Shown piece by piece: positions 8,475 to 53,820 of a stretch of DNA of 64,000 nucleotides (the stretch's first letter is position 1; each line of letters begins with the position of its first letter). The DNA is taken from assembly GCA_000002445.1 (NCBI GenBank), contig CP000068.1, positions 96,001 through 160,000 on the forward strand. The letters are read 5' to 3'. A model generated the notes under the pieces. It saw only the letters and a list, made by a program, of their open reading frames with translations, was not told the DNA's origin and did not search any database. The DNA is from Trypanosoma brucei (lineage: Eukaryota). A program made the translations under genes and the position numbers.

Positions 8475-10043
8475 TTAAATATCACTGTCGAAACCTGCTG
8501 CGGTCTTCGTATTTTTGCTTTTAGCATTAGCCTCCTCTATGTTTATATCATCCTTCACCTCAGCCTTCCTACGGCCCCTAATAACAAAGAACACAAGCAA
8601 CCCAAGCAACAGCAAAAGCAAAGGAATTAAAAATATTAACACTTTCGTTGTCCCAATCCAGCCACTCTTGGCCTCGCTGCCCTCATCATCATGGTCAGCG
8701 TTTACGTCGTCCTCTTCACCACTTTCTTTCGACTCCTCTTTCAATTCCTCAGCCAATTTTTCTACATCCTTCTTCAGTTTCTCTTCAGATTCCTCGGCGC
8801 CCTCCTTGTCCCACCGCGCAACTTCTGCATCTTCGGTGGCTTTGACGCGCTCCTCCTCCGCTTCCTCAAATGCCTTTCTCGAATCTTTCACCTGCTTTTC
8901 TGCAGCCTTTTCAGTTGCCTCAGCTTCCTCAACAGCCTCCAGCAACATCTTTTTCTTTTCTTCACTCACCGGCTGACCCGCCTCCTTTGCCTTCTCAGCC
9001 TTCTCAGCTTCCAAGCGCCTGGCCTCCGCCTGTTCCTCAGCAGCCACTCGTCTCGCCTCAGCCTCCTCCAAAGCCTTTCTCGCTTCCTCAGCAGCCTTCT
9101 CAGCAGCCTGGCGTTTCGCCTCCTCCTCCGCCGCCCGCGCCTCTGCTGCTTTTTTCCATTCCAGATACTGTGCAAGAGACTCCCTTCCAATCTGTTGAAA
9201 TCTCTGAGCATAGTGAGTCACCCCCAAGGAATTGCGGACTAGAGTTTCAAGTTTGAGTATCGCATACCTTGCTGCATCGTAGTCCCACCGCCAACTTTCA
9301 AGCAGCGTGCATGGTTTATCGGAGGAGGACGCACTTCTTGACGAATGGCCGCTGCTGCACTCAACAGCATCCCTTGCATCAGCCTTGGGCTTTGCTCGAT
9401 TCCATGCCTCGACTGCCCCCTCCATGTTGGAGAAGGTCACATCAGTTTTTGCAGCCGGAATAGACTTGTACTCGCAATATATAACGTATGCGCGAGCGTC
9501 ATCATGTCCAAAATTTCGATGATAGTCATGTTTATACGCACTGGGATCGCAGTTTGCGTTAGCCATATGGTCAAACGAATCACGGATTGCTTCCTTGTTT
9601 ATACAGTGCCATTTTAGCAACTCCTTGAGAACTTTGCTCGAGTTCGCTGCAGCCCTCTTCGCCTTCTCCCATGCCTCCTCAACGCTCCTTTTCGTTCGGT
9701 TCGCTACACGTTGGACACCACGCATCTGATCCAACATCTTTTGTCCCAGCGCCGCCCTCATATCATCATGCTCTGACACTTTCTGAAAAATTTCTCTCGC
9801 GACCTTCAAATATTTCCAGGATTGCCTCTCTAGAAAGTCTGCTCTATCAGCAACACCGTCAAGCAACTTTTTCATGGTACACAGTGTCAACACAGCTTCA
9901 CCATCAAGTTTCCGCCCATTTATTGTTACATACTGCTTATATGCGACAGGTAAGTTGCTTGCCTTGGACACATCGAGCGCACATATGCCGCAGAGGAGAA
10001 ATACTGTTGCAGTAGTGCGTAATGTAACAGGCATCGTTGACAT
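8475..10043 (-). CDS. ISG75: invariant surface glycoprotein ISG75 family, copy A (subtype 1), 522 aa type-I membrane protein
   Basis: Signal peptide MSTMPVTLRTTATVFLLCGICALDV; ectodomain with conserved Cys and the motif FSNMEGAVEAWNRAKPK; EEA/KRQAAEKAAEEARK coiled coil; TM LIFLIPLLLLLLGLLVFFVI; short K-rich tail RGRRKAEVKDDINIEEANAKSKNTKTAAGFDSDI. Size matches the ISG75 of roughly 523 aa I recall. Near-identical over its C-terminal half to the five other copies in the window. Confidence 0.85.
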   Translation of the reverse strand: MSTMPVTLRTTATVFLLCGICALDVSKASNLPVAYKQYVTINGRKLDGEAVLTLCTMKKLLDGVADRADFLERQSWKYLKVAREIFQKVSEHDDMRAALGQKMLDQMRGVQRVANRTKRSVEEAWEKAKRAAANSSKVLKELLKWHCINKEAIRDSFDHMANANCDPSAYKHDYHRNFGHDDARAYVIYCEYKSIPAAKTDVTFSNMEGAVEAWNRAKPKADARDAVECSSGHSSRSASSSDKPCTLLESWRWDYDAARYAILKLETLVRNSLGVTHYAQRFQQIGRESLAQYLEWKKAAEARAAEEEAKRQAAEKAAEEARKALEEAEARRVAAEEQAEARRLEAEKAEKAKEAGQPVSEEKKKMLLEAVEEAEATEKAAEKQVKDSRKAFEEAEEERVKATEDAEVARWDKEGAEESEEKLKKDVEKLAEELKEESKESGEEDDVNADHDDEGSEAKSGWIGTTKVLIFLIPLLLLLLGLLVFFVIRGRRKAEVKDDINIEEANAKSKNTKTAAGFDSDI

Positions 10044-10633
10044 CCGTTAAAACTTATCTGTCACCCTCCTCTGATCACCACTTCCTCAGCTTGTCAGTCT
10101 CAACCTCACGTTACCTTGGCCGTAGAAATATGCAATCAACTACAGTCAAATATCCAAGAGAAAATAAGAAAGGGAAGGGAATCGATAGAAACGACCAAAG
10201 AGTAAAAATATGCGCGATTGAGCAAAGGAAATAATATGCGTATCCAATAGCGGATTTGTTGCAGTTCACCCGAACATGGACAACCTCCACGGCAGTCTTT
10301 CATTACACCCTTCATAGTAGCGCAAGGAATGTATGAATACCCTTAACACATGAAATAAGCAATACGTATGAAAAAAGGCATCAGCACTGGTATCCGCAGC
10401 TACCAATGCGGCCCTACCTCAAACCGGTAGTATGTGGGAAAAGGGTAATAACCTTGAGATGAGCTGCAAGGAACTGGTCAGACCGAAACATTACAAGCAA
10501 CGGTATAAAAAGCAAGAAACGAAAACATATAAAAAGCACCCTTATATCACTTATAGCAACCGATTTCAATTCCAAAATCATACACACAAATGCCTATACC
10601 TGTTCCTTCGTGTTCGGGCACCTGTGATAGTGT

Positions 10634-12205
10634 TTAAATATCACTGTCAAGACCTGCTGCGGTCTTCGTATTTTTGCTTTTAGCATTAGCTTCCCCTATG
10701 TTTATATCATCCTTCACCTCAGCCTTCCTACGGCCCCTAATAACAAAGAACACAAGCAACCCAAGCAACAGCAAAAGCAAAGGAATTAAAAATATTAACA
10801 CTTTCGTTGTCCCAATCCAGCCACTTTTGGCCTCGCTGCCCTCATCATCATGGTCAGCATTTACGTCGTCCCCTTCACCACTTTCTTTCGACTCCTCTTT
10901 CAATTCCTCAGCCAATTTTTCTACATCCTTCTTCAGTTTCTCTTCAGATTCCTCGGCGTCCTTCTTTTCCTCTTTTGCAGCCTCTGCATCTTCGGTGGCT
11001 TTGACGCGCTCCTCCTCCGCTTCCTCAAATGCCTTTCTCGAATCTTTTGCCTGCTTTTCTGCGGCCTTTTCAGTTGCCTCAGCTTCCTCAACAGCCTCCA
11101 GCAACATCTTTTTCTTTTCTTCACTCACCGGCTGACCCGCCTCCTTTGCCTTCTCAGCCTTCTCAGCTTCCAAGCGCCTGGCCTCCGCCTGTTCCTCAGC
11201 GGCCACTCGTCTCGCCTCAGCCTCCTCCAAAGCCTTTCTCGCTTCCTCAGCAGCCTTCTCAGCAGCCTGGCGTTTCGCCTCCTCCTCCGCCGCCCGCGCC
11301 TCTGCTGCTTTCCTTCTCTCCTCATGCTGTGCAAGAGACTCTTTGTAACCCTCTAGCACTTTCTTAGAGTAGTGAAAAACCCTTAAAGCTAGGGTCGCAT
11401 CCTTCTCGACCTTCGATATTAAATGTGCCGTTACTCTGTAGTTCCAAAGCCAGTTCTCCAGCACTGTGCATGGTCGTCCAGCGGGAGCTGCTTGGTGAGC
11501 GGGTGCGCCTGCTCCACATATCATAACACGAGCGGAGTACGGTTTGGGTTTTACCTGGTTCCATATTTCGAGTGCCCTCTCCATGTTGGAGAACGTCGTT
11601 TGTGTAATGACGCTGTCCACTACTTTGTAGTTGCATAAAATGCTGTATTTATGGGGATCAAGCCTCGAATGTTCATAGTAGTAGTCTCGCTTGTACGCGT
11701 TGGGTAAGCAGTTCTCATTTCGACCGTAGCCAGGAAGGACGTCATGACTCGCCGTCCTGTCAACACAATGCCACGTCAGCACTTGGTCGAGAGCTGCACT
11801 TGCATTTGCCGCCGCTGCCTTAGCCCGCTCTCCTGTGCCCCCCATGTACTTGATTATGCCATTGCCCAGCGATTTCATGTACTGTATTTCCCGAAGCTTA
11901 TTTGAAGGGAATGATAACTCCATTCCCTTGTCATCCGATATTTTACGAAAATTCGCATTCGCATTGTTGACATACATATACGCCTGCTGTTCAAACATGT
12001 CAACCCTGGAGTTCACGCCGTCAAGCATCTTCTTCATTTCGCACAGTGTCGTAGCCCCTTGTCCATCAAGTTGCCGAGCACCTGCTGTTACATATTGTTT
12101 TTGTGCAACAGAGAGCTCCTCCGCCCAAGTCACATCGAGCGCACATATGCCGCAGAGGAGAAATACTGTTGCAGTAGTGCGTAATGTAACAGGCATCGTT
12201 GACAT
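10634..12205 (-). CDS. ISG75: ISG75 family, copy B (subtype 2), 523 aa
   Basis: Same signal peptide, coiled coil, TM and tail as copy A. The ectodomain is of a second type (DVTWAEELSVAQKQYV..., ALEIWNQVKPKP, PCTVLENWLWNY). One tandem unit of about 2.16 kb. Confidence 0.85.
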   Translation of the reverse strand: MSTMPVTLRTTATVFLLCGICALDVTWAEELSVAQKQYVTAGARQLDGQGATTLCEMKKMLDGVNSRVDMFEQQAYMYVNNANANFRKISDDKGMELSFPSNKLREIQYMKSLGNGIIKYMGGTGERAKAAAANASAALDQVLTWHCVDRTASHDVLPGYGRNENCLPNAYKRDYYYEHSRLDPHKYSILCNYKVVDSVITQTTFSNMERALEIWNQVKPKPYSARVMICGAGAPAHQAAPAGRPCTVLENWLWNYRVTAHLISKVEKDATLALRVFHYSKKVLEGYKESLAQHEERRKAAEARAAEEEAKRQAAEKAAEEARKALEEAEARRVAAEEQAEARRLEAEKAEKAKEAGQPVSEEKKKMLLEAVEEAEATEKAAEKQAKDSRKAFEEAEEERVKATEDAEAAKEEKKDAEESEEKLKKDVEKLAEELKEESKESGEGDDVNADHDDEGSEAKSGWIGTTKVLIFLIPLLLLLLGLLVFFVIRGRRKAEVKDDINIGEANAKSKNTKTAAGLDSDI

Positions 12206-12801
12206 CCGTTAAAACTTATCTGTCACCCTCCTCTGATCACCACTTCCTCAGCTTGTCAGTCTCAACCTCACGTTACCTTGGCCGTAGAAATATGCAATCA
12301 ACTACAGTCAAATATCCAAGAGAAAATAAGAAAGGGAAGGGAATCGATAGAAACGACCAAAGAGTAAAAATATGCGCAATTGAGCAAAGGAAATAATATG
12401 CGTATCCAATAGCGGATTTGTTGCAGTTCACCCGAACATGGACAACCTCCACGGCAGTCTTTCATTACACCCTTCATAGTAGCGCAAGGAATGTATGAAT
12501 ACCCTTAACACATGAAATAAGCAATACGTATGAAAAAAGGCATCAGCACTGGTATCCGCAGCTACCAATGCGGCCCTACCTCAAACCGGTAGTATGTGGG
12601 AAAAGGGTAATAACCTTGAGATGAGCTGCAAGGAACTGGTCAGACCGAAACATTACAAGCAACGGTATAAAAAGCAAGAAACGAAAACATATAAAAAGCA
12701 CCCTTATATCACTTATAGCAACCGATTTCAATTCCAGTTCCAAAATCATACACACAAATGCCTATGTCTGTTCCTTCGTGTTCGGGCACAAGAGAAGGTG
12801 G

Positions 12802-14373
12802 TTAAATATCACTGTCAAGACCTGCTGCGGTCTTCGTATTTTTGCTTTTAGCACCGCCTTCCTCTATGTTTATATCATCCTTCACCTCAGCCTTCCTACG
12901 GCCCCTAATAACAAAGAACACAAGCAACCCAAGCAACAGCAAAAGCAAAGGAATTAAAAATACTAACACTTTCGTTGTCCCAATCCAGCCACTCTTGGCC
13001 TCGCTGCCCTCATCATCATGGTCAGCATTTACGTCGTCCTCTTCACCACTTTCTTTCGACTCCTCTTTCAATTCCTCCGCCAATTTTTCTACATCCTTCT
13101 TCAGTTCCTCTTCGGACCGTCCGATGGTATCCCTGTTCTGCTTTGCAGCCTCTGCATCTTCGGTGGCTTTGACGCGCTCCTCCTCCGCTTCCTCAAATGC
13201 CTTTCTCGAATCTTTTGCCTGCTTTTCTGCAGCCTTTTCAGTTGCCTCAGCTTTCTCAACAGCCTCCAGCAACATCTTTTTCTTTTCTTCACTCACCGGC
13301 TGACCCGCCTCCTTTGCCTTCTCAGCCTTCTCAGCTTCCAAGCGCCTGGCCTCCGCCTGTTCCTCAGCGGCCACTCGTCTCGCCTCAGCCTCCTCAAATG
13401 CCTTTCTCGCTTCCTCAGCAGCCTTCTCAGCAGCCTGGCGTTTCGCCTCCTCCTCCGCCGCCCGCGCCTCTGCTGCTTTCCTTCTCTCCTCATGCTGTGC
13501 AAGAGACTCCTTCGAACTTTCTAGGATTTTCTCAGAGTAGCGGTATACGAATAGAGCAACATCCAAATCCCTGTGGAGCCGCGCTATCAAGTGGGTTGCC
13601 ACTTCGTAGCTCCGCATCCAGTTCTCCAGCACTGTGCATGGTCGCCCTGGTGGAGCTGCTTGGTGAACGGGTGCGCCCGCTCCACATATCATAACACGCA
13701 TATGGTACGGCTTGGGCTTTACCTGGTTCCATATTTCGAGTGCCCTCTCCATGTTGGAGAACGTCGTTTGAGTAGTGGTGCTACTGACCACTTTGTAGTT
13801 GCATAAAATGCTGTATTTATGGGGATCAAGCCTCGAATGTTCATAGTAGTAGTCTCGCTTATACGCGTTAGGTTCACAATTTGCATTTGGAGTAGAACTG
13901 TATGAGGACTCGCGACTCTCCGTCCTGTCAACACAATGCCATTTTAGCACCTCATCGAGAGCTGCGCTTGCATTTGCCGCCGCCTTTTTAGCCCTTCCTT
14001 CGGTTGCATTCATGAGATATGCGATGTCGTCAAGCCTCGTCTTCATGTACTGCATTTGCTGATGTTGATCTCCAGATAGCGATGCTGCCATTACCTTGTC
14101 ATCCGATATTTTACGAAAATTCGCATTCGCATTGTTGACATACATATAGATTTGTTGTTCAAATGTGTCAACCCTGGAGTTCACACCGTCAAGCAACTTT
14201 TTCATGGTACACAGTGTCGCCGCAGCTTCACCATCAAGTTGCCGCCCATGTGCTGTCACATACTGTTTTTGCGCAACAGAGAGCTCCTCCGCCCAAGTCA
14301 CATCGAGCGCACATATGCCGCAGAGGAGAAATACTGTTGCAGTAGTGCATAATGTAACAGGCATCGTTGACAT
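12802..14373 (-). CDS. ISG75: ISG75 family, copy C (subtype 2), 523 aa
   Basis: As copy B but with patchwise differences in the ectodomain (for example ESSYSSTPNANCEPNAYKR versus HDVLPGYGRNENCLPNAYKR). C-terminal 230 aa almost identical to the other copies. Confidence 0.85.
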   Translation of the reverse strand: MSTMPVTLCTTATVFLLCGICALDVTWAEELSVAQKQYVTAHGRQLDGEAAATLCTMKKLLDGVNSRVDTFEQQIYMYVNNANANFRKISDDKVMAASLSGDQHQQMQYMKTRLDDIAYLMNATEGRAKKAAANASAALDEVLKWHCVDRTESRESSYSSTPNANCEPNAYKRDYYYEHSRLDPHKYSILCNYKVVSSTTTQTTFSNMERALEIWNQVKPKPYHMRVMICGAGAPVHQAAPPGRPCTVLENWMRSYEVATHLIARLHRDLDVALFVYRYSEKILESSKESLAQHEERRKAAEARAAEEEAKRQAAEKAAEEARKAFEEAEARRVAAEEQAEARRLEAEKAEKAKEAGQPVSEEKKKMLLEAVEKAEATEKAAEKQAKDSRKAFEEAEEERVKATEDAEAAKQNRDTIGRSEEELKKDVEKLAEELKEESKESGEEDDVNADHDDEGSEAKSGWIGTTKVLVFLIPLLLLLLGLLVFFVIRGRRKAEVKDDINIEEGGAKSKNTKTAAGLDSDI

Positions 14374-14902: not shown

Positions 14903-16561
14903 CTATATTGACTGCTCCTTTTCATGCTTCACGGTGGGAGTAATGCGAGGCAACTCCACAAAGGCGTCAATGGCCGGCGTATCCTTAACCGCTCTTTCCT
15001 CGCTAAAAAGGCCGTCGTTGTGGATGTTGTGATACAACTGCATTTCTCTCCGCCCACGGATGACAAAGAAGAGAAACGACCCGAGCAGCAAGAGTAAGAT
15101 AATGAAACGCACTAATAATCGCGTGATTCTATGGTTGTCACGTTGATGGGCATCAAACACTTCATCACCTTTGTCGTATTTGCTGACTCTCGCGAGGCTC
15201 TGGTACACCTCCTTTTTCAAGTCTGCACACGATCGCAAGGTGTCCTCTGCCTCCCACTGTGCAATAATCGCCGCATCATCAGCCTTCATCATCTCTGTTT
15301 CGGCTCCTTCCAGTGCCTTCTTTGATATTTCTGCCTCTTTCTCGACTTCCCTCAACCTAGACTTTGCATCCTTCTCTGCCTGTATTTTTTTCCTGCTCTC
15401 CCCAGCCATCAGAAGGGCGGCCGCCTCAAGCTTCTCCTTGTTAGCCTTCGCCTCCTCCAGTGCCTTGCTCAATTCTTCGATTTTCGTCGTCACTTCCCGC
15501 AGTTTGCTCTCAGCTTCCCTCACGGCATCGGCATCCCGGCTCCTGGCTTCCGCATCCCTTTTAAGTAATAGCCACCTCTTTTCAACATCTTCGAAGACAT
15601 TTCTCGCCTCATTGACAACTCTACCGGCTGCCTGATGTTTCGACCTTTCCTCTACGGCACGTTCGTTTGCGGCCTTATCCTCCTCATGGACGCCCTCGGC
15701 CGACGTCCCTTCGCCCAGCGAGAGCATTTCTGCATATTTTCGGATTCTGACAGCAACGTGGGTTAAATCGTAGAGCCTCCTCATAGAATACCTTGATGCG
15801 TTGTAATCCTCTAGCCAAGATTCACGCAGCATGCATGGCACCAGCGTTTCAGTGGCTTCGTCCCTCCACTGACCGTTCCAACATTCAGATAGACGCGTTA
15901 GGTTGGGTTTGGGCTTCACAAAATTCCACTTGTCAAGTGCCCTCCCCATCGTTTCAAACGATGCAACAGTATCTCCGCTGCGGATAACCTTGTAGTCACA
16001 CAGAATACTGTTGTTCCTGCGATCATTCACGTGATAATAGTGGAACCGCTCCCTTGAAAACGCGTCAGGATCACAGTTAGCGCCAGTGCTATAATTATAA
16101 GGAGACCCTCTCATCTTTTCAACATCGATGCAGTGCCATTTAAGTATATCCGAAAGAAGTCTGCTAGCATCCAAAGCTGCCTCTTTAGTTCGCTTATAAG
16201 CCGCCTCGATGTGCTTTCTAACGGCCTCAACAAGCTCTCTGGTCATAAGTATCTCCTCCTGTTTTTTCTTCGTGAGAGATGTTCTTATGTTATCGCTAAT
16301 TGTTACATTCGAGAGTACGGTCTTCGCTTTACTCAGCTGCGACAACGCCTCACTCTCAAGGAAAAACGCCCTTTCGGAAACGAGGTCAACAATTGCTTTG
16401 ATAACACATATCGACCGTGCACCCTCACCATCAACTTTTTTTCCTCCGCTGGTGACATACGATTTCCACCATACTAGCTCCTCCGCCCAAGTCACATCGA
16501 GCGCACATATGCCGCAGAGGAGAAATACTGTTGCAGTAATGCGTAATGTAACAGGCATCAT
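14903..16561 (-). CDS. divergent ISG75-related paralog of 552 aa. It has the ISG75 signal peptide and 5' flank but a different ectodomain, coiled coil and cytoplasmic tail.
   Basis: N-terminus MMPVTLRITATVFLLCGICALDVTWAEEL is identical in style to ISG75. It retains ISG-fold hallmarks (ANCDPDAFSRE, FETMGRALDKWNFVKPKP, PCMLRESWLEDY). It has its own charged coiled coil, the TM FIILLLLLGSFLFFVIRGRR, and a longer unrelated tail (EMQLYHNIHNDGLFSEERAVKDTPAIDAFVELPRITPTVKHEKEQSI). The upstream 200 bp is shared with the ISG75 repeat unit. Confidence 0.7.
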   Translation of the reverse strand: MMPVTLRITATVFLLCGICALDVTWAEELVWWKSYVTSGGKKVDGEGARSICVIKAIVDLVSERAFFLESEALSQLSKAKTVLSNVTISDNIRTSLTKKKQEEILMTRELVEAVRKHIEAAYKRTKEAALDASRLLSDILKWHCIDVEKMRGSPYNYSTGANCDPDAFSRERFHYYHVNDRRNNSILCDYKVIRSGDTVASFETMGRALDKWNFVKPKPNLTRLSECWNGQWRDEATETLVPCMLRESWLEDYNASRYSMRRLYDLTHVAVRIRKYAEMLSLGEGTSAEGVHEEDKAANERAVEERSKHQAAGRVVNEARNVFEDVEKRWLLLKRDAEARSRDADAVREAESKLREVTTKIEELSKALEEAKANKEKLEAAALLMAGESRKKIQAEKDAKSRLREVEKEAEISKKALEGAETEMMKADDAAIIAQWEAEDTLRSCADLKKEVYQSLARVSKYDKGDEVFDAHQRDNHRITRLLVRFIILLLLLGSFLFFVIRGRREMQLYHNIHNDGLFSEERAVKDTPAIDAFVELPRITPTVKHEKEQSI

Positions 16562-17215
16562 TGGAAACCATCAAAACTTATCTGTCACCCTCCTCTGATC
16601 ACCACTTCCTCAGCTTGTCAGTCTCAACCCCACGTTACCTTGGCCGTAGAAATATGCAATCAACTACAGTCAAATATCCAAGAGAAAATAAGAAAGGGAA
16701 GGGAATCGATAGAAACGACCAAAGAGTAAAAATATGCGCGATTGAGCAAAGGAAATAATATGCGTATCCAATAGCGGATTTGTTGCAGTTCACCCGAACA
16801 TGGACAACCTCCACGGCAGTCTTTCATTACACCCCTCGTAGTAGCTGCAAACCTCGGCATGCTATGAGCCATCCGGCCACCGCAGCTCCCCTTGGTGATG
16901 GTGTTGAGTGCGTTGAGCTAAAGTGCCTTTACAAATAAAGGCCAAAGTGACCATTTCAGAAGATAGCACAAGGCCTGTCAAATCATAAAAAAGAGCAGGA
17001 GCACGGGAAATGGCTGCTGAGAAAAAAGACAAAGAGGTGTATAGATAAAAGGGGGAAGCAGCTAGATGGTGGAACGCTTTACGACTGTGGCAGCCGCAAG
17101 GGTGCAGCAAAGTCTATGATGTTTGAAAAACGGTTGCGGCACATACCACGAAGCATCAACAACAGTGCTGGGTGGCGAAACACAAAGTGACAGAGTCGCT
17201 CGCGGTTTACTGTAT

Positions 17216-17238
17216 CACACACACACACACACACACAC
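17216..17238. repeat. (CA)11 microsatellite
   Basis: Read directly from the sequence. Confidence 0.95.
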
Positions 17239-20200: not shown

Positions 20201-20391
20201 CGTCGTCCCCACCGCCCTTCACGCACGATAAGCAATGTTACGTCCCGCACCATCCTGTAAGAAAATTACGGAAGAAGAATCCAACTCCCTTTTAAGGCGT
20301 AGAACTCCGAAACGATCAGCCTTCAATGAGAGTAGAAGCCTCCACCACGCACGCCTGCACTGAAGTCGACATCTCGGCAGCGAAGAGCCGC

Positions 20392-20392
<1 letters not shown>

Positions 20393-20447
<55 letters not shown>
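20393..20447. repeat. compound microsatellite (CA)14(TA)13 in the divergent strand-switch region
   Basis: Read directly from the sequence. Confidence 0.95.
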
Positions 20448-23400
20448 CTACTTATTCATACCGCTGCCCCCCCTGTAGTCAGGCAGGCCACGCAGTGAAT
20501 CCCGCCGCGTGATAATAAATTTTTAAGAAGTGGAAACGGGAATGTGCCAGCACCGCCTTTTTAAGGGCCACATGGTCGGGGCCGCGACTCTGTTAGCTCA
20601 TACGCTCCGACAAGCGGATTTACGCCGTCGTGCTAATACCGTTCCGGGAAGGATTGCAGTGTGACTGCGGGCTGGGGGAGGTCATGCTGGGTTGAGCGGT
20701 GGGCTACGTGTCTAGACTGTCCGTTAAAGCTGAGGAAGCTGGGGGTCGTTTGCTTCCTACCGATAAGAATGTACTGTGGCGGAACGGAGTGGCTTGGGGG
20801 AAAGTGAGGGAAGGGGGAGGTTGCCCTTTTTTTTTTTTCTTGATTTGTCAGTACGCCAGGGGGGAGGGGTGATAAAACTCTACCGGCTTCGGTTGAACTC
20901 TACAGGAGAGGGAAGTCTGAAACAAATTCTGCCCCAAGGAGCCCGCGGCACCGACGCGCACGCGCTTGTTAATTTGTAAAAAGCCAAAAGAAGAATGAAG
21001 CCACGGGGGGGGAGGGACGCCGGTGACGCAGGTAGCGACATGCGCACCTCTATGAGTAGGTGTGCAAATGCGCGAATGCGTTACCTATCTGCTCCTCTCA
21101 TCGAAACACTTGTGTCATGACTCGGGCATTTGCTTACCTTGGGGTCTTTTTGGAAGTGTTTGAAAGTACACCTTTTCTCCGCTCCTAAGTTAAGCCCCTT
21201 CCCTCCTTCAACGGGATCCACTCCAAGTTTCAACGACGGCCCGGCATGCAGGTCTGCAGGTGATAGACAGGTAAGGGGAATTAGCCCTCACAACTGTGGC
21301 AATCTGGGCGGGGTTTAACGTCCACGAAGAGAGCTGAACTAATACATCTGCGGATATATGTATCAGGGGGCGCTTTCTCCTCCTTTACTGGTGCCACGAC
21401 TCCTCTAACCATGAAAAAAAAAGGAGAAAGGATGCCAGATTTCTGCCTTGCTTGTTGAACTAGTTGACCCTCCATTTGGCTGGATTCGGGAACTGGTGGT
21501 TGAAAATATATGCGTATCTGGATATCGAAAGAGCACAGTGGAGGATGAAAAGGGGGGCTTACCCAATGTTATTTTTTTAAACTTTAACACTATTCGGATC
21601 GAAAGGCCCTTGGGGGGAGAGGGGAAATGAAATGTAGGGGAACATGGAGGGAAAGTACATGCCTGTGGGAGTTGTTTCCCCTCTGCCTGATTCTTCTCGT
21701 TGAGTGAAAAAAGATGTAGTGGTGGTCGCTCCCACTAACAGCGGGAGAGCAGCGAAGAAAAAACTTATTTTGCTCCATTTCAATACTGCGGATTAGTTGT
21801 GAGAAATATATATATTTATATATGCATTACCTATTGACAGTGCGCTGGTGAGGTGCAGGGGTGACGACATGCTCGCTGAGAGTTGAAAGTAGCGCTCCTA
21901 CAGAGAACTTCTTTCCGTAAAAGTTAAAGTGTGGGGTGGGAAAAGGGACACAAGGAAATCAGCAGCAGTACTGGGGATAAACTTGCGGGTTTAAACCTTG
22001 GCGCTGTTTCAAGCGTCTAGAGACGCTGAACGATTTGCTCGTAGTTATGCGTATTATTTTTCTCTCATATGTGAAGGGTGTATGTTGTATGCAGTTCATT
22101 CCTCAGCTACACATGATGTTGGTTTGTGGCCGCGCCTGGACACCCCCACGCTCGTATACAAGGAAAGGGAAAGGAACCAATATGCCAGCACTTAGTTTGC
22201 TGCCAATATGTTTGAGTATTTCTGCCTCTGTATCGACACGAATAAAGGGCAGTGAAATGAACGCCATACACCACTTTCAGTAACGAAATTCCTCTAAATA
22301 GGGGGAAATACGTTGGGAGAGGTAGTTGTGAGGCTATAAATTAAATATTTCTGTGTCCTCTAGTTTTTATGCATCCCTCATATACAAAGCTACGTATTGT
22401 CACCAGCCTCCATGTAGCCCATGGTATTTGCCCCCGTTTCACGTTTTTTAAAGCGTTTCTCAATGCTTCTTCTAATTTTACAAATGTGTGTCTTTGCGTG
22501 TGAGCTGTTTCGGTGAGTGGTGCATACATGGGAAGGAAAATATATTAACGTCGGGGAAATGCAATGGGTTTTTTTTTTCTTGCTATACTGTTTGCTCATT
22601 TCTCCCTCCACATAATTTGTAAATGGGCACAGTCAGCTGGAAGCTGACTCTGACTTTTTTTTGCCATTGATTCCTCGAATTACGTATGGAGGTGACACCC
22701 CATTTTGTCAAAGTATTGTACCCAGAGGCTTTTTTTGTAAACATGCACATTGCCGTGAGCCTCATATCCCGCATCACAAAGGAACAAGGGGTGGACTGTT
22801 CACTTTGCCCTCACCGTGTTCTGTGTAGTTGAACGGACACACGATACTGAAACATTGGGGATAATTATAATGATAGTGATAATAACAACGAAACGTGCTC
22901 AGAAGCCTTTTTGTATGGGAGGGCTTCTGGAATTCTGTCAAGCGCATTGACTCATATCCTCTTGGTTGGATTGCTGCCTATTCTTGTACGTTAATTTCGT
23001 GTAATGCTAACCATTCTACTGGCTGCTGTCTTGATGTTGTTGGAGCTCCAAACCTCTGCAACATCATGACCTCCTCACGTCACCTGTCTGGATCGTGGGG
23101 CAGGCTGTTACTTGCAAAAAGAATATCAACAATTCGTCACGCAACTAACGGCTGGACAAAATAAGCCAAGAAAAAACGGTAAGGGAAGGTGCGAGTTCGG
23201 GAGTGACGTATGCTGATTGTCGTGAGACAATAACGTTTCTCAGCAATTCCGGAAAGTATGAATGTTGAGGGAATTCCTTAACACACAGATGGGGATGGAA
23301 GTTGGTTTTTATTATTATTATTATCATTACTATTTTGAAGGGGGAGAAAGACGTCCACAGTGATTTTGAATACAGTGGGATACATCTCCCATGCCTACTA

Positions 23401-25423
23401 AGTTGCAGTGGGGATGGGGAAATTGAGAGAGAGTACAGAAGACGCTGACGCTGGCGATGTTAAGTGTGGTGTCACCAACTGGAAAAGATTGGGGGGTTAG
23501 AAAAACTTTCAAAATGAAACGCAGTTACACAACCGAAAAGGGTGGGAGTGAGATGAAGAGGACGTGTGGAGGCGTGCCTTTAGTTGTCGCGGATGTAGGA
23601 GCCACCGTGACTCGTAAAAAGAGATGGTACAGTTACCTGTTCACGGCATTCTTACACTTGTAAGCAGTGGTGGAGGACGCAATAGAAGTGAGGATGAATA
23701 CGCCTCAAACTGCGTTAGTTAGCTCGTACAGATCATGTATTACGGGCATATCTGACTCCCAACCCCAGCATACAAGAGAGTTTTTCTTTTTGCTGACTTC
23801 ACATATCTGTTACTGTCTGAAGTTCCAAACTGTGTTTAATAACAGATAATCTGTTGTATTGACGCTAATATTGTTGCGCTAATTTTTTTTTTTTAAATCA
23901 TGTATCCGCGAGGGAATTTGACGTGGTTTTTTTGGTGTGAAGTGAAAAGAGCACCCGCAAAGCAGGTATCGTGCACATATCATTTATCTACCTTTTGTCT
24001 TTTCAACAAAAAATTACAGGGGTCGTCTTCGTCATGATGGGCTCCCTCATCCACGCCACGTGCCCATATGGAGTTTTATTGGCTGGTTGCGCCACGTTTC
24101 ACCCAGACGAATTCGCAAAACTAAAGGCACATGGTCAGAATTTAAAAAAAAAAAGGAAGCCGTATAAAGCAACGAAAAGGGGGAAAATGTGACAGACATC
24201 GCGCATTTGTCCACTGGAATCGAGGTAAATACATATAAAGGCAGGTAACCTTCTCACGCGTCTGTTTCCCTGCACACAAGTATTTGATGTATTGGTTGGC
24301 GTTACAGTTGCTTTCGCTGCTCGCTATCTCAACCTGAGGAGTTCTTAGAAGTATATAAAGTGAGGAATATAGGGCAGGTGCGGGCTAGATGTTCTTTCCG
24401 TGCGTTCAGCCAATAATGCAGTTGTGATTATTCGTCACGCATGTTCTTTTTTATATTTTACCCTCCCCACTGCTGAGATCAGTCCCCTTCTCGTGGGCTA
24501 CCGACTTATATTCTCCTGCTGCGTATCTGTGGTCGTGCAATTCGTTGTGGCAGTGACTGTTGCGATGTCAAAGGAACGATTTCATAACCGACGCGTGAGC
24601 ACAAATCGCTTGATCTCTAATAGCTCGTGGTCTACTAGCGCAAAAAATCAAGGTATTTCGTCTCCTAAACGCGAAACTGATTTTTTTTTTCAGTGATTTG
24701 CCTGTTGTCATGAGGAACTGCGCAGCCATCTGCCCACGATGGTGGCTCCAACAGCGGGGCTCCACCAGTAAGTGATGTAGCAACCAAAGCGCCAACAGTA
24801 CGCACCGTTATCGTCCACAGGCCACTGAACGCAAGCACCACCAACAATCCATAAGAGCATCGCCCTGACGGTCGCACACCGCGCGGTAATCCTGCACTAA
24901 CAAACAATAAGGACTCCATGAAACATTTACCGGAAACAACCATTGTGACCAGAAATTACAACTGCGGATATACAACAAGAAGTTAGTGTGAAGCATATGC
25001 ACTTCTACCTCAGTCATCTCAACTTCAAAATAACCAACATATATCCGTAACTAAACAACGTATGTCTTGACACACCCAAATTTTTTTTTTTTACTATCAC
25101 CCACACGATAAATATTTCCTCGACAAACCAAGGGTTACCTTTCTTACCTTGCGCAAAATAACACTGTTACTCGGAAATTTCACATCGTCAGTCCAACCCA
25201 CCTTTTGTATTATTACAAAACATTTACAAATACTATTTCCTTTGCTCAATTGCGCATATTTTTACTCTTTGGTCGTTTCTATCGATTCCCTTCCCTTTCT
25301 TATTTTCTCTTGGATATTTGACTGTAGTTGATTGCATATTTCTACGGCCAAGGTAACGTGGGGTTGAGACTGACAAGCTGAGGAAGTGGTGATCAGAGGA
25401 GGGTGACAGATAAGTTTTAACGG

Positions 25424-26992
25424 ATGTCAACGATGCCTGTTACATTACGCACTACTGCAACAGTATTTCTCCTCTGCGGCATATGTGCGCTCGATGTGAC
25501 TCTGGCCGCAGACCTTCCACTTACAAGTAGGCAGTTCGTAACAAACGGACGTATGCTTGACGGGCGGGGTGCTTTGACACTGTGCGAAATGAAGAAGACG
25601 CTTGACGGTGTGAACTCCAGGGTTGACACATTTGAACAACAAATCCTTACGTTCGTCAACAATGCGAATGCGAATTTTCGTAAAATATCGGATGACAAGG
25701 TAATGGCAGCATCGCTCTCCGCGAGCAGGCTACAGGAAATGCAGTACATGAAATCGCTGGGCAATAGCATAATCAAGTACATGGGGGGCACAGGAGAGCG
25801 GGCTAAGGCAGCGGCGGCAAATGCAAGCGCAGCTCTCGACCAAGTGCTGACGTGGCATTGTGTTGACAGGACGGCGAGTCACGAGTCCTCATACAGTTCT
25901 ACTCCAAATGCAAATTGTGAACCTAACGCGTATAAGCGAGACTACTACTATGAACATTCGAGGCTTGATCCCCATAAATACAGCATTTTATGCAACTACA
26001 AAGTGGTCAGTAGTACCACTACTCAAACGACGTTCTCCAACATGGAGAGGGCACTCGAAATATGGAACCAGGTAAAACCCAAACCGTACTCCGCTCGTGT
26101 TATGATATGTGGAGCAGGCGCACCCGCTCACCAAGCAGCTCCCGCTGGACGACCATGCACAGTGCTGGAGAACTGGGTGCGAGACTACAGAGTAACGGCA
26201 CATTTGATAGCAAAGCTCGAGAAGGATGCGACCCTAGCTCTAAGGGTTATGCGCTACTCTGAGAAAGTGCTAGAGGGTGACAAAGAGTCTCTTGCACAGC
26301 ATGAGGAGAGAAGGAAAGCAGCAGAGGCGCGGGCGGCGGAGGAGGAGGCGAAACGCCAGGCTGCTGAGAAGGCTGCTGAGGAAGCGAGAAAGGCTTTGGA
26401 GGAGGCTGAGGCGAGACGAGTGGCCGCTGAGGAACAGGCGGAGGCCAGGCGCTTGGAAGCTGAGAAGGCTGAGAAGGCAAAGGAGGCGGGTCAGCCGGTG
26501 AGTGAAGAAAAGAAAAAGATGTTGCTGGAGGCTGTTGAGGAAGCTGAGGCAACTGAAAAGGCTGCAGAAAAGCAGGCAAAAGATTCGAGAAAGGCATTTG
26601 AGGAAGCGGAGGAGGAGCGCGTCAAAGCCACCGAAGATGCAGAGGCTGCAAAAGAGGAAAAGGAGGACGCCGGACGGTCCGAAGAGGAACTGAAGAAGAG
26701 TCTCGAAAAATTGGCGGAGGAATTGAAAGAGGAGTCGAAAGAAAGTGGTGAAGAGGACGACGTAAATGCTGACCATGATGATGAGGGCAGCGAGGCCAAA
26801 AGTGGCTGGATTGGGACAACGAAAGTGTTAATATTTTTAATTCCTTTGCTTTTGCTGTTGCTTGGGTTGCTTGTGTTCTTTGTTATTAGGGGCCGTAGGA
26901 AGGCTGAGGTGAAGGATGATATAAACATAGAGGAAGGCGGTGCTAAAAGCAAAAATACGAAGACAGCAGCAGGTCTTGACAGTGATATTTAA
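25424..26992 (+). CDS. ISG75: ISG75 family, copy E (subtype 2, mosaic of the B-type and C-type ectodomains), 522 aa
   Basis: Same domain organisation. The ectodomain mixes B-like segments (SLGNSIIKYMGGTGERAKAAAANASAALDQVLTWHCVDRTASH) and C-like segments (ESSYSSTPNANCEPNAYKR, KVMAASLS). Lies on the opposite strand from copies A-D. Confidence 0.85.
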   Translation: MSTMPVTLRTTATVFLLCGICALDVTLAADLPLTSRQFVTNGRMLDGRGALTLCEMKKTLDGVNSRVDTFEQQILTFVNNANANFRKISDDKVMAASLSASRLQEMQYMKSLGNSIIKYMGGTGERAKAAAANASAALDQVLTWHCVDRTASHESSYSSTPNANCEPNAYKRDYYYEHSRLDPHKYSILCNYKVVSSTTTQTTFSNMERALEIWNQVKPKPYSARVMICGAGAPAHQAAPAGRPCTVLENWVRDYRVTAHLIAKLEKDATLALRVMRYSEKVLEGDKESLAQHEERRKAAEARAAEEEAKRQAAEKAAEEARKALEEAEARRVAAEEQAEARRLEAEKAEKAKEAGQPVSEEKKKMLLEAVEEAEATEKAAEKQAKDSRKAFEEAEEERVKATEDAEAAKEEKEDAGRSEEELKKSLEKLAEELKEESKESGEEDDVNADHDDEGSEAKSGWIGTTKVLIFLIPLLLLLLGLLVFFVIRGRRKAEVKDDINIEEGGAKSKNTKTAAGLDSDI

Positions 26993-27444
26993 CCACCTTC
27001 TCTTGTGCCCGAACACGAAGGTACAGATATAGGCATTTGTGTGTATGATTTTGGAATTGAAATCGGTTGCTATAAGTGATATAAGGGTGCTTTTTATATG
27101 TTTTCGTTTCTTGCTTTTTATACCGTTGCTTGTAATGTTTCGGTCTGACCAGTTCCTTGCAGCTCATCTCAAGGTTATTACCCTTTTCCCACATACTACC
27201 GGTTTGAGGTAGGGCCGCATTGGTAGCTGCGGATACCAGTGCTGATGCCTTTTTTCATACGTATTGCTTATTTCATGTGTTAAGGGTATTCATACATTCC
27301 TTGCGCTACTATGAAGGGTGTAATGAAAGACTGCCGTGGAGGTTGTCCATGTTCGGGTGAACTGCAACAAATCCGCTATTGGATACGCATATTATTTCCT
27401 TTGCTCAATCGCGCATATTTTTACTCTTTGGTCGTTTCTATCGA

Positions 27445-27486
27445 TTCCCTTCCCTTTCTTATTTTCTCTTGGATATTTGACTGTAG
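27445..27486 (+). promoter_or_regulatory. polypyrimidine tract plus first downstream AG: predicted spliced-leader trans-splice acceptor for ISG75 copy F. The same motif lies upstream of every ISG75 unit, for example 25286-25327 (+) and 10156-10182 (- strand).
   Basis: TTCCCTTCCCTTTCTTATTTTCTCTT followed by ...GACTGTAG about 100 nt upstream of the ATG. This matches the kinetoplastid poly-Y/AG processing signal. Confidence 0.55.
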
Positions 27487-27582
27487 TTGATTGCATATTT
27501 CTACGGCCAAGGTAACGTGAGGTTGAGACTGACAAGCTGAGGAAGTGGTGATCAGAGGAGGGTGACAGATAAGTTTTAACGG

Positions 27583-29151
27583 ATGTCAACGATGCCTGTT
27601 ACATTACGCACTACTGCAACAGTATTTCTCCTCTGCGGCATATGTGCGCTCGATGTGTCCAAGGCAAGCAACTTACCTGTCGCATATAAGCAGTATGTAA
27701 CAATAAATGGGCGGAAACTTGACGGGCGGGGTGCTTTGACACTGTGTACCATGAAAAAGTTGCTTGACGGTGTTGCTGATAGAGCAGACTTTCTAGAGAG
27801 GCAATCCTGGAAATATTTGAAGACAGTGCAGGAAATTTTTCAGAAAGTGTCAGAGCATGATGATATGAAGGCGGCCCTTGGCGAAAAGAAGCTGCAGGAA
27901 ATGCATAATGTAATGGCCATATCAGCAACCACTGGAACGTACGTTGGTGAAGCGTGGGGAAAGGCGAAGAGGGCTGCAGCGAACTCGAGCAAAGTTCTCA
28001 AGGAGTTGCTAAAATGGCACTGTATAAACAAGGAAGCAATCCGTGATTCGTTTGACCATATGGCTAACGCAAACTGCGATCCCAGTGCGTATAAACATGA
28101 CTATCATCGAAATTTTGGACATGATGACGCTCGCGCATACGTTATATATTGCGAGTACAAGTCTATTCCGGCTGCAAAAACTGATGTGACCTTCTCCAAC
28201 ATGGAGGGGGCAGTCGAGGCATGGAATCGAGCAAAGCCCAAGGCTGATGCAAGGGATGCTGTTGAGTGCAGCAGCGGCCATTCGTCAAGAAGTGCGTCCT
28301 CCTCCGATAAACCATGCACGCTGCTTGAAAGTTGGCGGTGGGACTACGACTTGGCAGCACATTGCATTGAAAAACTTGAAAGATACACCAGAAATGCATT
28401 ACAAACAGTTCATTACGCTCAAAAATTCCTACATAAAGGAAAGGAGTCTCTTGCACAGTATCTGGAATGGAAAAAAGCAGCAGAGGCGCGGGCGGCGGAG
28501 GAGGAGGCGAAACGCCAGGCTGCTGAGAAGGCTGCTGAGGAAGCGAGAAAGGCTTTGGAGGAGGCTGAGGCGAGACGAGTGGCTGCTGAGGAACAGGCGG
28601 AGGCCAGGCGCTTGGAAGCTGAGAAGGCTGAGAAGGCAAAGGAGGCGGGTCAGCCGGTGAGTGAAGAAAAGAAAAAGATGTTGCTGGAGGCTGTTGAGGA
28701 AGCTGAGGCAACTGAAAAGGCTGCAGAAAAGCAGGTGAAAGATTCGAGAAAGGCATTTGAGGAAGCGGAGGAGGAGCGCGTCAAAGCCACCGAAGATGCA
28801 GAAGTTGCGCGGTGGGACAAGGAGGGCGCCGAGGAATCTGAAGAGGAACTGAAGAAGGATGTAGAAAAATTGGCTGAGGAATTGAAAGAGGAGTCGAAAG
28901 AAAGTGGTGAAGAGGACGACGTAAACGCTGACCATGATGATGAGGGCAGCGAGGCCAAGAGTGGCTGGATTGGGACAACGAAAGTGTTAATATTTTTAAT
29001 TCCTTTGCTTTTGCTGTTGCTTGGGTTGCTTGTGTTCTTTGTTATTAGGGGCCGTAGGAAGGCTGAGGTGAAGGATGATATAAACATAGAGGAGGCTAAT
29101 GCTAAAAGCAAAAATACGAAGACCGCAGCAGGTTTCGACAGTGATATTTAA
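27583..29151 (+). CDS. ISG75: ISG75 family, copy F (subtype 1, closest to copy A), 522 aa
   Basis: N-terminus DVSKASNLPVAYKQYVTINGRKLDG and tail ...EEANAKSKNTKTAAGFDSDI as in copy A. Patchwise differences in the mid-ectodomain. Its 3' flank (29152-29379) is the reverse complement of copy A's 3' flank (8248-8474). Confidence 0.85.
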   Translation: MSTMPVTLRTTATVFLLCGICALDVSKASNLPVAYKQYVTINGRKLDGRGALTLCTMKKLLDGVADRADFLERQSWKYLKTVQEIFQKVSEHDDMKAALGEKKLQEMHNVMAISATTGTYVGEAWGKAKRAAANSSKVLKELLKWHCINKEAIRDSFDHMANANCDPSAYKHDYHRNFGHDDARAYVIYCEYKSIPAAKTDVTFSNMEGAVEAWNRAKPKADARDAVECSSGHSSRSASSSDKPCTLLESWRWDYDLAAHCIEKLERYTRNALQTVHYAQKFLHKGKESLAQYLEWKKAAEARAAEEEAKRQAAEKAAEEARKALEEAEARRVAAEEQAEARRLEAEKAEKAKEAGQPVSEEKKKMLLEAVEEAEATEKAAEKQVKDSRKAFEEAEEERVKATEDAEVARWDKEGAEESEEELKKDVEKLAEELKEESKESGEEDDVNADHDDEGSEAKSGWIGTTKVLIFLIPLLLLLLGLLVFFVIRGRRKAEVKDDINIEEANAKSKNTKTAAGFDSDI

Positions 29152-29379
29152 ACACTATCACAGGTGCCCGAACACGAAGGAACAGACATAGGCATTTGTG
29201 TGTATGATTTTGGAACTGGAATTGAAATTAGGTGCTTGATGCAATTTAACGGTTTCCACGCAAGGTTTAGTGGAAATATTATACGCCATTAATTGTCCTT
29301 GTGGCTCCATTCAAATTGTTGATGCTTGCTTAATGTTATTTTTATAAGGTACTTTCGGGTGTAACGGTGCAGGGTGAAC

Positions 29380-46106: not shown

Positions 46107-46142
<36 letters not shown>

Positions 46143-53699: not shown

Positions 53700-53820
53700 A
53701 TAAATAAATAAATATTTATATTTATATATTTATATATATTTATATATATTTATATATTTATATATTTATATTTATATATTTATATATTTATATATATTTA
53801 TATTTATATATATATATACA
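53700..53820. repeat. AT-only minisatellite (TATATATT / TATATTTA units)
   Basis: Repeated TTTATATATATTTATATAT... periodicity over about 120 bp inside a 2.7 kb low-complexity intergenic region. Confidence 0.85.

What the first reader, a model, noticed from the sequence alone, without database searches (positions are those of the whole stretch)
8475..29151. Patchwork (segmental gene-conversion) variation confined to the ISG75 ectodomain, with an invariant C-terminal half
Across copies A, B, C, E and F the C-terminal roughly 230 aa (coiled coil, TM, tail) and the 3'/5' flanks are almost identical at nucleotide level. The N-terminal roughly 290 aa falls into two subtypes. Within a subtype, blocks are shuffled. 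Copy E carries B-type blocks (SLGNSIIKYMGGTGERAKAAAANASAALDQVLTWHCVDRTASH) next to C-type blocks (KVMAASLS…, ESSYSSTPNANCEPNAYKR). A and F differ in discrete patches (VAREIFQ…RGVQRVANRTKRSVEEAWEKAK versus TVQEIFQ…HNVMAISATTGTYVGEAWGKAK). This is the signature of short-tract gene conversion between paralogs. It suggests that exposed parts of this supposedly 'invariant' antigen diversify while the membrane-proximal stalk is held constant.
Basis: seen in the sequence. Interest (0 to 1): 0.5.

Follow-up and report, generated by a model that had tools for sequence, protein, structure and literature searches.

The report
ISG75 gene array: known mosaic paralogs
The six ISG75 surface-protein genes of Trypanosoma brucei TREU927 chromosome 5 do swap short ectodomain blocks while the rest of each repeat is kept near-identical, but gene conversion at this exact locus was published in 2007, so the finding is real and ordinary.

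Summary
The window is T. b. brucei TREU927 chromosome 5. It holds five ISG75 genes (A, B, C, E, F) and one divergent paralog (D).

- **Identity by region.** The signal peptide is 99-100% identical and the C-terminal half 93.5-99.9%. The ectodomain falls into two groups, 52-56% identical between groups and 78-87% within.
- **Blockiness.** Variation is strongly clustered: 72 informative-site runs against 161±7 expected, and PHI p=0.002.
- **Copy E.** It has a canonical group-2 backbone, three short B-type tracts (roughly 13-90 nt) and a unique N-terminal patch.
- **A/F and C patches.** These have no donor in the window or in the proteins I sampled. Their synonymous divergence is saturated (dS>2) next to dS=0, and dN/dS is 0.15-0.23. 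The A and F haplotypes recur in T. equiperdum clones, and A also in T. evansi, T. b. rhodesiense and T. b. gambiense. They are old alleles in a homogenised background, not fresh diversification.
- **C-terminal constancy.** It comes largely from concerted evolution, because synonymous sites and 606 nt of spacer are also identical.
- **Location of variation.** Within a subtype it sits in bundle helices H2 and H3. The predicted membrane-distal head shows 0/103 changes between A and F.

Jackson 2007 (PMC1855330) already reported gene conversion at this locus, including the E tract at 408-603 bp and the E/F event at 136-164 bp. Tran 2006 reported the two groups. Emes & Yang 2008 reported ectodomain-only selected sites. 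Verdict: already known, low interest.

The parts
8475..10043 (-). ISG75 copy A. Group 1, 'A-type' ectodomain. Terminal gene of the minus-strand array (Jackson's Tb32.4).
   Evidence: ORF; PF11727; exact match to TREU927 protein P0026; the A-type haplotype is seen in many independent Trypanozoon sequences.
10634..12205 (-). ISG75 copy B. Group 2, 'B-type'. Donor type for the tracts found in E.
   Evidence: 98-100% nt identity across the whole ectodomain to T. b. gambiense Tbg1/Tbg3 and to a T. equiperdum copy.
12802..14373 (-). ISG75 copy C. Group 2, canonical backbone with two private hypervariable patches: 13985-14103 (nt ~271-389) and 13514-13655 (nt ~719-860).
   Evidence: Painting; no donor in the window; a second TREU927 record, P0005, differs at one residue.
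14903..16561 (-). Divergent ISG75 paralog D (552 aa, about 35% aa identity to E). Only its 5' flank and signal-peptide codons are homogenised with the other copies.
   Evidence: P0010; repeat I11.
25424..26992 (+). ISG75 copy E, the mosaic copy. Unique N-terminal patch at 25502-25558. B-type tracts at 25560-25598, 25788-25875 and 26083-26095. Canonical (G/C-type) segments at 25629-25766, 25882-26023 and 26206-26279.
   Evidence: Matches Jackson 2007's conversion region at 408-603 bp.
27583..29151 (+). ISG75 copy F. Group 1, 'F-type'. Identical to A except for patches at 27723-27735, 27823-27831, 27869-27960 and 28353-28445.
   Evidence: the F-type haplotype also occurs in T. equiperdum clones P0007 and P0035.
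9666..9757 (-). A-allele of HVR2 (aa 96-126, helix H2). The counterpart in F is 27869-27960.
   Evidence: 54% nt identity between A and F, dS 2.2, dN/dS 0.23.
9181..9273 (-). A-allele of HVR3 (aa 257-288, helix H3). The counterpart in F is 28353-28445.
   Evidence: 52% nt identity between A and F, dS 3.6, dN/dS 0.15.
12131..12736 (.). C-B spacer plus the first 75 nt of B. 100% identical over 606 nt, as an inverted repeat, to the E-F spacer plus the first 75 nt of F (27052-27657).
   Evidence: repeat I6.
16562..25423 (.). 8.8-kb region with no ORF over 130 aa, lying between the two divergently oriented ISG75 arms. Its edges (16573-16850 and 25230-25423) carry the shared ISG75 5' module.
   Evidence: 98% identical to the equivalent region of T. 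equiperdum locus L001.
8247..8474 (-). 3' flank shared only by the two array-terminal copies A and F. The F counterpart is 29152-29379. This is the outer limit of the quasi-palindrome.
   Evidence: 97% identity over 228 nt, then no further similarity.

Best explanation
The ISG75 locus is a quasi-palindromic multigene array: A-B-C-D on one strand and E-F on the other. It evolves by mixed concerted evolution.

Homologous recombination between copies (gene conversion, probably with unequal crossing-over) keeps the high-identity parts of the ~2.16-kb repeat unit near-identical. Those parts are the spacer and UTRs, the signal peptide, and the C-terminal helical stalk, transmembrane segment and tail.

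The mature N-terminal domain (nt 76 to ~895) keeps a small set of old, deeply diverged haplotypes. There are two groups and at least five types: A and F in group 1, and B, canonical 'G' and C in group 2. Conversion tracts that enter this domain are short, from 13 to about 90 nt and at most about 180 nt by their bounds. They produce mosaics such as E, or the T. equiperdum copy whose first ~80 ectodomain nt are A-type on a G-type body.

I infer that tracts stay short because recombination is limited by sequence divergence, and probably also because selection keeps several ectodomain types.

Shown here: the block structure, donors and non-reciprocity for E, synonymous and non-coding homogenisation, and the age and cross-taxon persistence of the haplotypes. 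Inferred: the mismatch-limited tract mechanism, and selection for keeping several types.
For: - **Incongruence.** Block-wise incongruence is far beyond chance.
- **E mosaic.** E is 100% identical to G-type copies in three segments and to B-type copies in three others. The B-type donor is intact in three genomes.
- **Edge conversion.** A T. equiperdum genome copy is A-type over nt 76-155 (31 sites) and G-type over the next 327 informative sites.
- **Depth contrast.** dS is 0 outside the A/F patches and 2.2-3.6 inside them. Between groups, dS is 0.07-0.15 in the C-terminal half and above 2 in the ectodomain.
- **Non-coding identity.** 606 nt and 478 nt of spacer plus signal-peptide sequence are 100% identical between arms. 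The 5' module is ≥98% identical even upstream of the divergent copy D.
- **Spread of variants.** A TREU927-specific variant at nt 1002 is shared by B, C and E. Variants at nt 1356/1361 are shared by all four T. equiperdum copies regardless of ectodomain type.
- **Literature.** Jackson 2007 reported gene-conversion events at this same locus with GENECONV-type tests: 408-603 bp, p = 1.2e-11, and 136-164 bp, p = 9.6e-4.
Against: - No donor was found for the A, F or C alleles of HVR2 and HVR3, or for E's N-terminal patch. For these, 'conversion' is inferred only from the depth contrast. An unsampled or extinct donor, or retention of ancient segments, cannot be told apart.
- The E and C haplotypes were seen only in TREU927 records.
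- Many comparison sequences are PCR-derived cDNA clones, which may include in-vitro chimeras.
- The role of mismatch repair and of selection was not tested here.
Confidence: 0.85

Rival explanations
1. Point-mutation-driven diversifying (positive) selection on exposed epitopes produces the ectodomain variation, without recombination. This is the reading of Emes & Yang 2008.
For: PAML site models on the three group-2 copies gave 16 codons with ω of about 4, all extracellular. All variation is confined to the extracellular N-terminal domain.
Against: - Pairwise dN/dS is 0.33-0.43 over the ectodomain and 0.15-0.45 in nearly all of the variable patches. The highest ectodomain value is 0.60 (B/E aa 202-293), in a near-identical block.
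- Synonymous sites in the patches are saturated while neighbouring ones are identical.
- Blocks are shared between different paralogs in a mosaic pattern.
- By established knowledge, site-model tests run on a single tree give false positives when the alignment is recombinant. That paper does not mention gene conversion.
Confidence: 0.1
2. The patchwork is an assembly artefact: collapsed or chimeric repeats, or merged haplotypes, in the TREU927 reference.
For: The locus consists of ~2.2-kb near-identical repeats in a diploid genome. The exact E and C proteins were not found in any other assembly on record.
Against: - A-, F- and B-type ectodomains recur, identical or nearly so, in independent cDNA clones and in the T. 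b. gambiense DAL972 and T. equiperdum genome assemblies.
- E contains a unique patch (best match 68-75%) that no other copy could have supplied.
- E switches type at least six times within ~700 nt, which is shorter than one Sanger read.
- A second TREU927 record of C differs at one residue only.
- An analogous mosaic exists in the T. equiperdum genome.
- The window contains no N runs.
Confidence: 0.04
3. A simple inverted segmental duplication of B-A gave E-F, followed by ordinary divergence. Purifying selection alone keeps the C-terminal half constant.
For: A and F share a private 228-nt 3' flank and are both array-terminal. Jackson 2007 proposed a segmental duplication origin for the pair.
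Against: - Post-duplication divergence cannot give dS > 2 in 92-nt patches beside 390 nt with zero differences.
- Purifying selection on the protein does not explain identical synonymous sites or 606 nt of 100% identical spacer.
- Most of E's backbone matches the canonical type, not B.
Confidence: 0.05

Closest known systems
Array 'Tb32' (75 kDa ISG) in Jackson 2007, BMC Evol Biol 7:54 (PMC1855330)
   Same: It is the same locus in the same genome. It describes a divergent 5' copy (D), a tandem pair on the opposite strand (E, F) related to Tb32.3/.4 (B, A), a conversion of one pair member from Tb32.2 (C) at 408-603 bp, and an N-terminal event at 136-164 bp. Both events were re-found here.
   Different: Using other strains, I read E as a canonical-type backbone that received B-type tracts, rather than a B duplicate that received a C tract. 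I also add the saturated-dS evidence that the A/F and C patches are old, and the placement of the variation on the predicted fold.
ISG65 array mosaics on chromosome 2 (Jackson et al. 2010, PMC2854126)
   Same: A sister ISG family in a tandem array. GARD breakpoints, a significant PHI test and subspecies-specific recombinant copies were reported. Mosaics were found in 31 of 35 variable arrays.
   Different: It is a different locus. ISG75 was not in that paper's table.
Two main ISG75 groups in Trypanozoon (Tran et al. 2006, Parasitology 133:613)
   Same: The A/F versus B/C/E split corresponds to the two clusters of deposited ISG75 cDNAs.
   Different: I could not read the paper. Only its title and its deposited sequences were used.
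Segmental gene conversion forming mosaic VSGs
   Same: Short homologous tracts are copied between diverged paralogs of three-helix-bundle surface proteins in the same organism.
   Different: ISG75 copies are intact genes in a core polycistronic array. Five of six paralogs were detected together by proteomics (Makarov 2023). There is no silent archive, no expression site and no evidence of switching.

Membership tests
ISG75 (Pfam ISG65-75, PF11727) | Profile match above the gathering score, and identity to known ISG75 | tested here: met
   All six ORFs score 52.9-60.4 bits against a cutoff of 25.1. A matches PDB 8rd2 'ISG75' at E = 8.7e-151. There are exact matches to TREU927 75 kDa ISG entries.
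ISG75 (Pfam ISG65-75, PF11727) | Type I architecture: signal peptide, helical-bundle ectodomain, stalk, one transmembrane segment, short tail | tested here: met
   AF2 helices at 49-91, 93-146 and 250-287, stalk helices, and a helix at 465-498. Foldseek TM-score 0.69-0.72 to 8rd2.
Non-allelic (interlocus) gene conversion | Spatially clustered phylogenetic incongruence beyond chance | tested here: met
   72 runs against 160.6 ± 7.2; PHI p = 0.002.
Non-allelic (interlocus) gene conversion | An identifiable donor carrying the identical tract | tested here: inconclusive
   Met for E's B-type tracts and for the E/F tract at nt 141-153. Not met for the A, F and C alleles of HVR2 and HVR3, or for E's N-terminal patch.
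Non-allelic (interlocus) gene conversion | Non-reciprocal transfer, with the donor unchanged | tested here: met
   B is 98-100% identical to B-type copies of two other genomes over its whole ectodomain.
Concerted evolution of a tandem array | Paralogs are identical at synonymous and non-coding sites | tested here: met
   C-terminal dS 0-0.15. Spacers are 100% identical over 478-606 nt.
Concerted evolution of a tandem array | Strain-specific variants are shared across paralogs | tested here: met
   nt 1002 is C only in TREU927 B, C and E. nt 1356/1361 are shared by all four T. equiperdum copies. Few sites are involved.
VSG-style antigenic variation | Silent donor archive, a single expressed copy, and switching | tested here: not met
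   All copies are intact ORFs in one chromosome-internal array. The literature reports co-detection of five of six paralogs. Switching cannot be tested with these tools.
Diversifying selection on epitopes | dN/dS > 1 in the variable segments | tested here: not met
   Pairwise dN/dS is 0.15-0.60 in all ectodomain segments. Site-level tests that allow for recombination were not run.

The most novel reading that the evidence does not exclude
The two hypervariable helix segments fall at the same positions in both ISG75 groups: HVR2 at aa ~96-126 on H2 and HVR3 at aa ~250-288 on H3. Each has several alleles with saturated synonymous divergence, and several of these alleles persist across Trypanozoon taxa. 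On this reading they are balanced 'cassettes' that give the co-expressed paralogs different ligand specificities, for example for IgG Fc of different hosts or subclasses. Selection would then actively protect them from the conversion that sweeps the rest of the repeat.
Probability: 0.15. Interest if true: 0.55.

Novelty: already known. Interest (0 to 1): 0.15.

Why it matters
ISG75 is a diagnostic and vaccine antigen, the route of suramin uptake and, by recent literature, an IgG Fc receptor. It therefore matters that 'invariant' covers at least five ectodomain isoforms per species. The phenomenon (two groups, ectodomain-only variation, gene conversion at this very locus) is already published.

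The modest additions here are:
- The large patches are ancient alleles in a homogenised background, not recent diversification.
- The earlier positive-selection call was probably confounded by recombination.
- Within a subtype the predicted head is the least variable part of the ectodomain.

Tried and rejected
- **Independent copies of E and C.** Exact-protein look-ups in public assemblies found nothing, so their independent confirmation rests on indirect arguments.
- **Unreadable papers.** Tran et al. 2006 is not held. The Mikkelsen 2024 structure and Fc-receptor paper was not found in the library. Its Fc-binding surface could not be compared with the patches.
- **3D mapping.** Structure prediction returns no coordinates. 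Mapping is limited to secondary-structure topology, and the head region has low confidence (pLDDT 29-48).
- **Donor search.** blastn-short and tblastn across the whole 64-kb window, including D and the three neighbouring ISG-family genes, found only positional homologs at ≤67% aa identity.
- **D as donor or outgroup.** Rejected: it is too divergent (35% aa identity).
- **Other scans.** Rfam and tRNA scans found nothing relevant to the locus.
- **DAL972 locus.** It contains a 100-N gap and partial genes, so it was used only for copy-level comparison, not for array structure.
Full report
**What is there**

The window is Trypanosoma brucei brucei TREU927 chromosome 5. Copies A, C, D, E and F are exact matches to annotated '75 kDa invariant surface glycoprotein' entries on a 1,608,198-bp contig.

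There are six ORFs:
- A 8475-10043, minus strand
- B 10634-12205, minus strand
- C 12802-14373, minus strand
- D 14903-16561, minus strand
- E 25424-26992, plus strand
- F 27583-29151, plus strand

All six hit Pfam PF11727. Copy A matches PDB 8rd2, named ISG75, at E = 8.7e-151. D is a divergent 552-aa paralog, about 35% identical to E. The two arms are divergently oriented around an 8.8-kb stretch with no ORF over 130 aa.

**Checking the observation**

I built a codon alignment of A, B, C, E and F. Pairwise identity falls into three zones:
- Signal peptide, nt 1-75: 98.7-100% in every pair.
- Ectodomain, nt 76-879: A/F 87%, B/E 85%, E/C 80%, B/C 78%. Between (A,F) and (B,C,E) it is only 52-56%.
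- C-terminal half, nt 880-1569: 93.5-99.9%.

The variation is strongly blocky. In 90-nt windows a given pair can have 0-2 differences in one window and 20-37 in the next. For the B/E/C triplet, 254 informative sites form 72 runs, against 160.6 ± 7.2 under permutation (minimum 135 of 10,000). The longest run is 30 consecutive E=C sites at nt 462-591, against a permutation maximum of 10. PHI gives p = 0.002.

A and F differ at 103 nt. Of these, 102 lie in four patches: nt 141-153, 241-249, 287-378 and 771-863. Everything between the patches is identical.

Two refinements are needed. First, the 'invariant' half has a small variable block at aa ~406-430. Second, the 3' flanks of the terminal copies A and F match each other for only 228 nt and match the internal spacers only briefly.

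**Is it recombination?**

I added DNA from T. b. gambiense DAL972 (L002) and a T. equiperdum genome (L001), and 'painted' each window gene by its nearest neighbour.

Copy B is 98-100% identical along its whole ectodomain to B-type copies in both other genomes.

Copy E has this structure:
- 100% identical to the canonical group-2 type (Tbg2, Tbg5, Teq_p1) over E nt 206-343, 459-600 and 783-856.
- B-type at nt 137-175, 365-452 and 660-672.
- A private patch at nt 79-135, whose best match anywhere is 68-75%.

The B-type donor is unchanged, so these are non-reciprocal, short-tract conversions.

At nt 141-153, F equals E at 8 of 8 differing sites and A equals C at 7 of 8. This is a 13-nt exchange between subtypes, and E and F share a 29-nt exact match there.

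The T. equiperdum gene in E's position is A-type for nt 76-155 (31 sites) and canonical for the next 327 informative sites. That is an inter-group conversion entering from the conserved 5' edge, seen in a genome assembly rather than a PCR clone.

**The large patches are old, not newly diversified**

The A/F patches, and C's private patches (nt ~271-389 and ~719-860), fall at the same two positions in both groups. I call them HVR2 (aa ~96-126) and HVR3 (aa ~250-288).

No donor for any of these alleles exists in the window or among the ISG75 proteins I sampled.

Nei-Gojobori estimates show a sharp contrast in depth:

| Segment (A vs F) | Synonymous differences | dS | dN/dS |
|---|---|---|---|
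| HVR2 patch | 14.8 of 21 sites | 2.2 | 0.23 |
| HVR3 patch | 15.8 of 21 sites | 3.6 | 0.15 |
| aa 127-256, between patches | 0 of 80 sites | 0 | n/a |
| C-terminal half | 0 of 144 sites | 0 | n/a |

Group-2 patches behave the same way (dS 0.5-1.6, dN/dS 0.21-0.44).

The full A-type and F-type haplotypes, with all patches linked, recur in independent sequences. F-type occurs in two T. equiperdum clones. A-type occurs in T. evansi, T. equiperdum, T. b. rhodesiense and T. b. gambiense.

The patches are therefore ancient alleles sitting in a recently homogenised background. No ectodomain segment has pairwise dN/dS above 0.60.

Emes & Yang (2008) called 16 positively selected codons in exactly the B/C/E trio, using one tree and not considering conversion. 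By established knowledge, that design is prone to false positives on recombinant alignments.

**Why the C-terminal half is constant**

Between groups, dS is 0.07-0.15 in the C-terminal half and above 2 in the ectodomain.

Non-coding sequence is homogenised too:
- 606 nt (C-B spacer plus 75 nt of CDS) is 100% identical to the E-F spacer on the other arm.
- 478 nt upstream of C is also 100% identical to it.
- About 190-290 nt upstream of every copy, including D, is ≥98% identical.

C-terminal variants assort independently of ectodomain type, and some are strain-specific across paralogs. nt 1002 is C only in TREU927 B, C and E. nt 1356/1361 are shared by all four T. equiperdum copies.

This is concerted evolution, not only purifying selection.

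**Placement on the fold**

AlphaFold2 on copy A (mean pLDDT 62.5; TM-score 0.69-0.72 to 8rd2) gives these elements:

| Element | Residues |
|---|---|
| H1 | 49-91 |
| H2 | 93-146 |
| Cys-rich head (low confidence) | 147-249 |
| H3 | 250-287 |
| Stalk helices | 290-354, 361-417, 420-441 |
| Transmembrane helix | from 465 |

H3 leads on to the stalk. The head is therefore membrane-distal and the H1-H2 turn membrane-proximal. This is an inference from topology. It agrees with the 'loop-rich head domain' description in PMC11065263.

Variable positions within a subtype, by element:

| Element | A vs F | B/C/E |
|---|---|---|
| H2 | 18/54 | 27/54 |
| H3 | 17/38 | 21/38 |
| Head | 0/103 | 18/103 |

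The head is where the two groups differ most, with 60 of 103 positions fixed for different residues. Within a subtype, the patchwork lies on the body of the bundle rather than its most exposed tip. I had no coordinates, so this needs checking on 8RD2.

**Mechanism**

The shown and inferred steps are set out under the best explanation. In short, frequent homologous recombination homogenises the high-identity parts of the repeat. Tracts that run into the diverged N-terminal domain stop early, at 13 to about 90 nt here. The result is edge erosion and occasional internal patches, while whole ectodomain types persist.

The dependence of trypanosome recombination on sequence identity and mismatch repair comes from general knowledge and was not tested here. 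Selection to keep several isoforms is plausible but unproven.

**Comparison with the literature**

- **Jackson 2007** (PMC1855330) analysed this very array as 'Tb32'. It describes the divergent 5' copy, the opposite-strand pair as a duplicate of Tb32.3/.4, a significant conversion of one pair member from Tb32.2 at 408-603 bp (p = 1.2e-11), and an event at 136-164 bp. Both events were re-found here.
- **Jackson et al. 2010** (PMC2854126) showed mosaics in 31 of 35 variable arrays, with ISG65 as the example.
- **Tran et al. 2006** described the two ISG75 groups (citation seen; paper not readable).
- **Makarov 2023** detected five of six paralogs together by proteomics. This argues against VSG-like switching.

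A full-text search for ISG75 together with 'gene conversion' returned only unrelated VSG contexts.

**Verdict**

The gene-conversion reading is supported, but it is already published for this locus. The 'exposed parts diversify' reading is only partly supported. Novelty: already known. Interest: low.

Noticed in passing
window 16493-16850 (D start and upstream), compared with 27305-27657: The divergent paralog D is only ~35% identical in protein to E. Yet its first ~69 coding nt and ~284 nt upstream are 97-99% identical to the other copies. The 5' module is homogenised independently of the gene body.
   Followed up: partly
window 8754-8828 in A (aa ~406-430); equivalent positions in B, C, E and F: A small variable block sits inside the 'invariant' stalk. 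It has three alleles that assort independently of ectodomain type across strains. For example, an A-type T. equiperdum copy carries the B-type allele.
   Followed up: partly
window 16562-25423: An 8.8-kb stretch with no ORF over 130 aa lies between the two divergently oriented ISG75 arms. GC skew changes sign near 20 kb. The stretch is 98% identical over 8.6 kb to the equivalent region of T. equiperdum. It is presumably a divergent strand-switch region.
   Followed up: partly
window 33279-34460, 35026-36147, 37164-38297 (all minus strand): Three further ISG-family genes (PF11727, E about 1e-88 to 1e-93; 373-393 aa) form a second small array just downstream. They correspond in position to three 393-, 373- and 377-aa PF11727 genes in the T. 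b. gambiense locus L002. Their variation was not analysed.
   Followed up: no
window 9699-9707 (A N115 sequon), 14002-14010 (C N122 sequon), 28363-28365 (F Cys261): HVR alleles differ in potential modifications. A has an extra NRT sequon and C an extra NAT sequon in HVR2. F has a seventh ectodomain cysteine in HVR3.
   Followed up: no
L001 (T. equiperdum CM010676.1) 1-17960: Array composition differs between strains. The plus arm has four ISG75 copies, three of them with frameshifts in this assembly. The gene next to the strand-switch region on the minus arm is B-type rather than D-type.
   Followed up: partly
window 8515-9242, 10674-11356, 12842-13694, 26270-26952, 28163-29111: Long antisense ORFs (153-197 aa) overlap the C-terminal half of every ISG75 copy. 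They are most likely a by-product of the Glu/Ala/Lys-rich codon composition.
   Followed up: no
window 38963-41317, 42372-42444, 43451-44941, 46000-54000: Other features in the window: a trans-sialidase-like gene, tRNA-Arg(ACG), and an Nuo51-type NADH dehydrogenase subunit. There is also an AT-rich zone (GC 32-35%) with an MFS transporter and an (AT)n microsatellite at 53687-53822.
   Followed up: no
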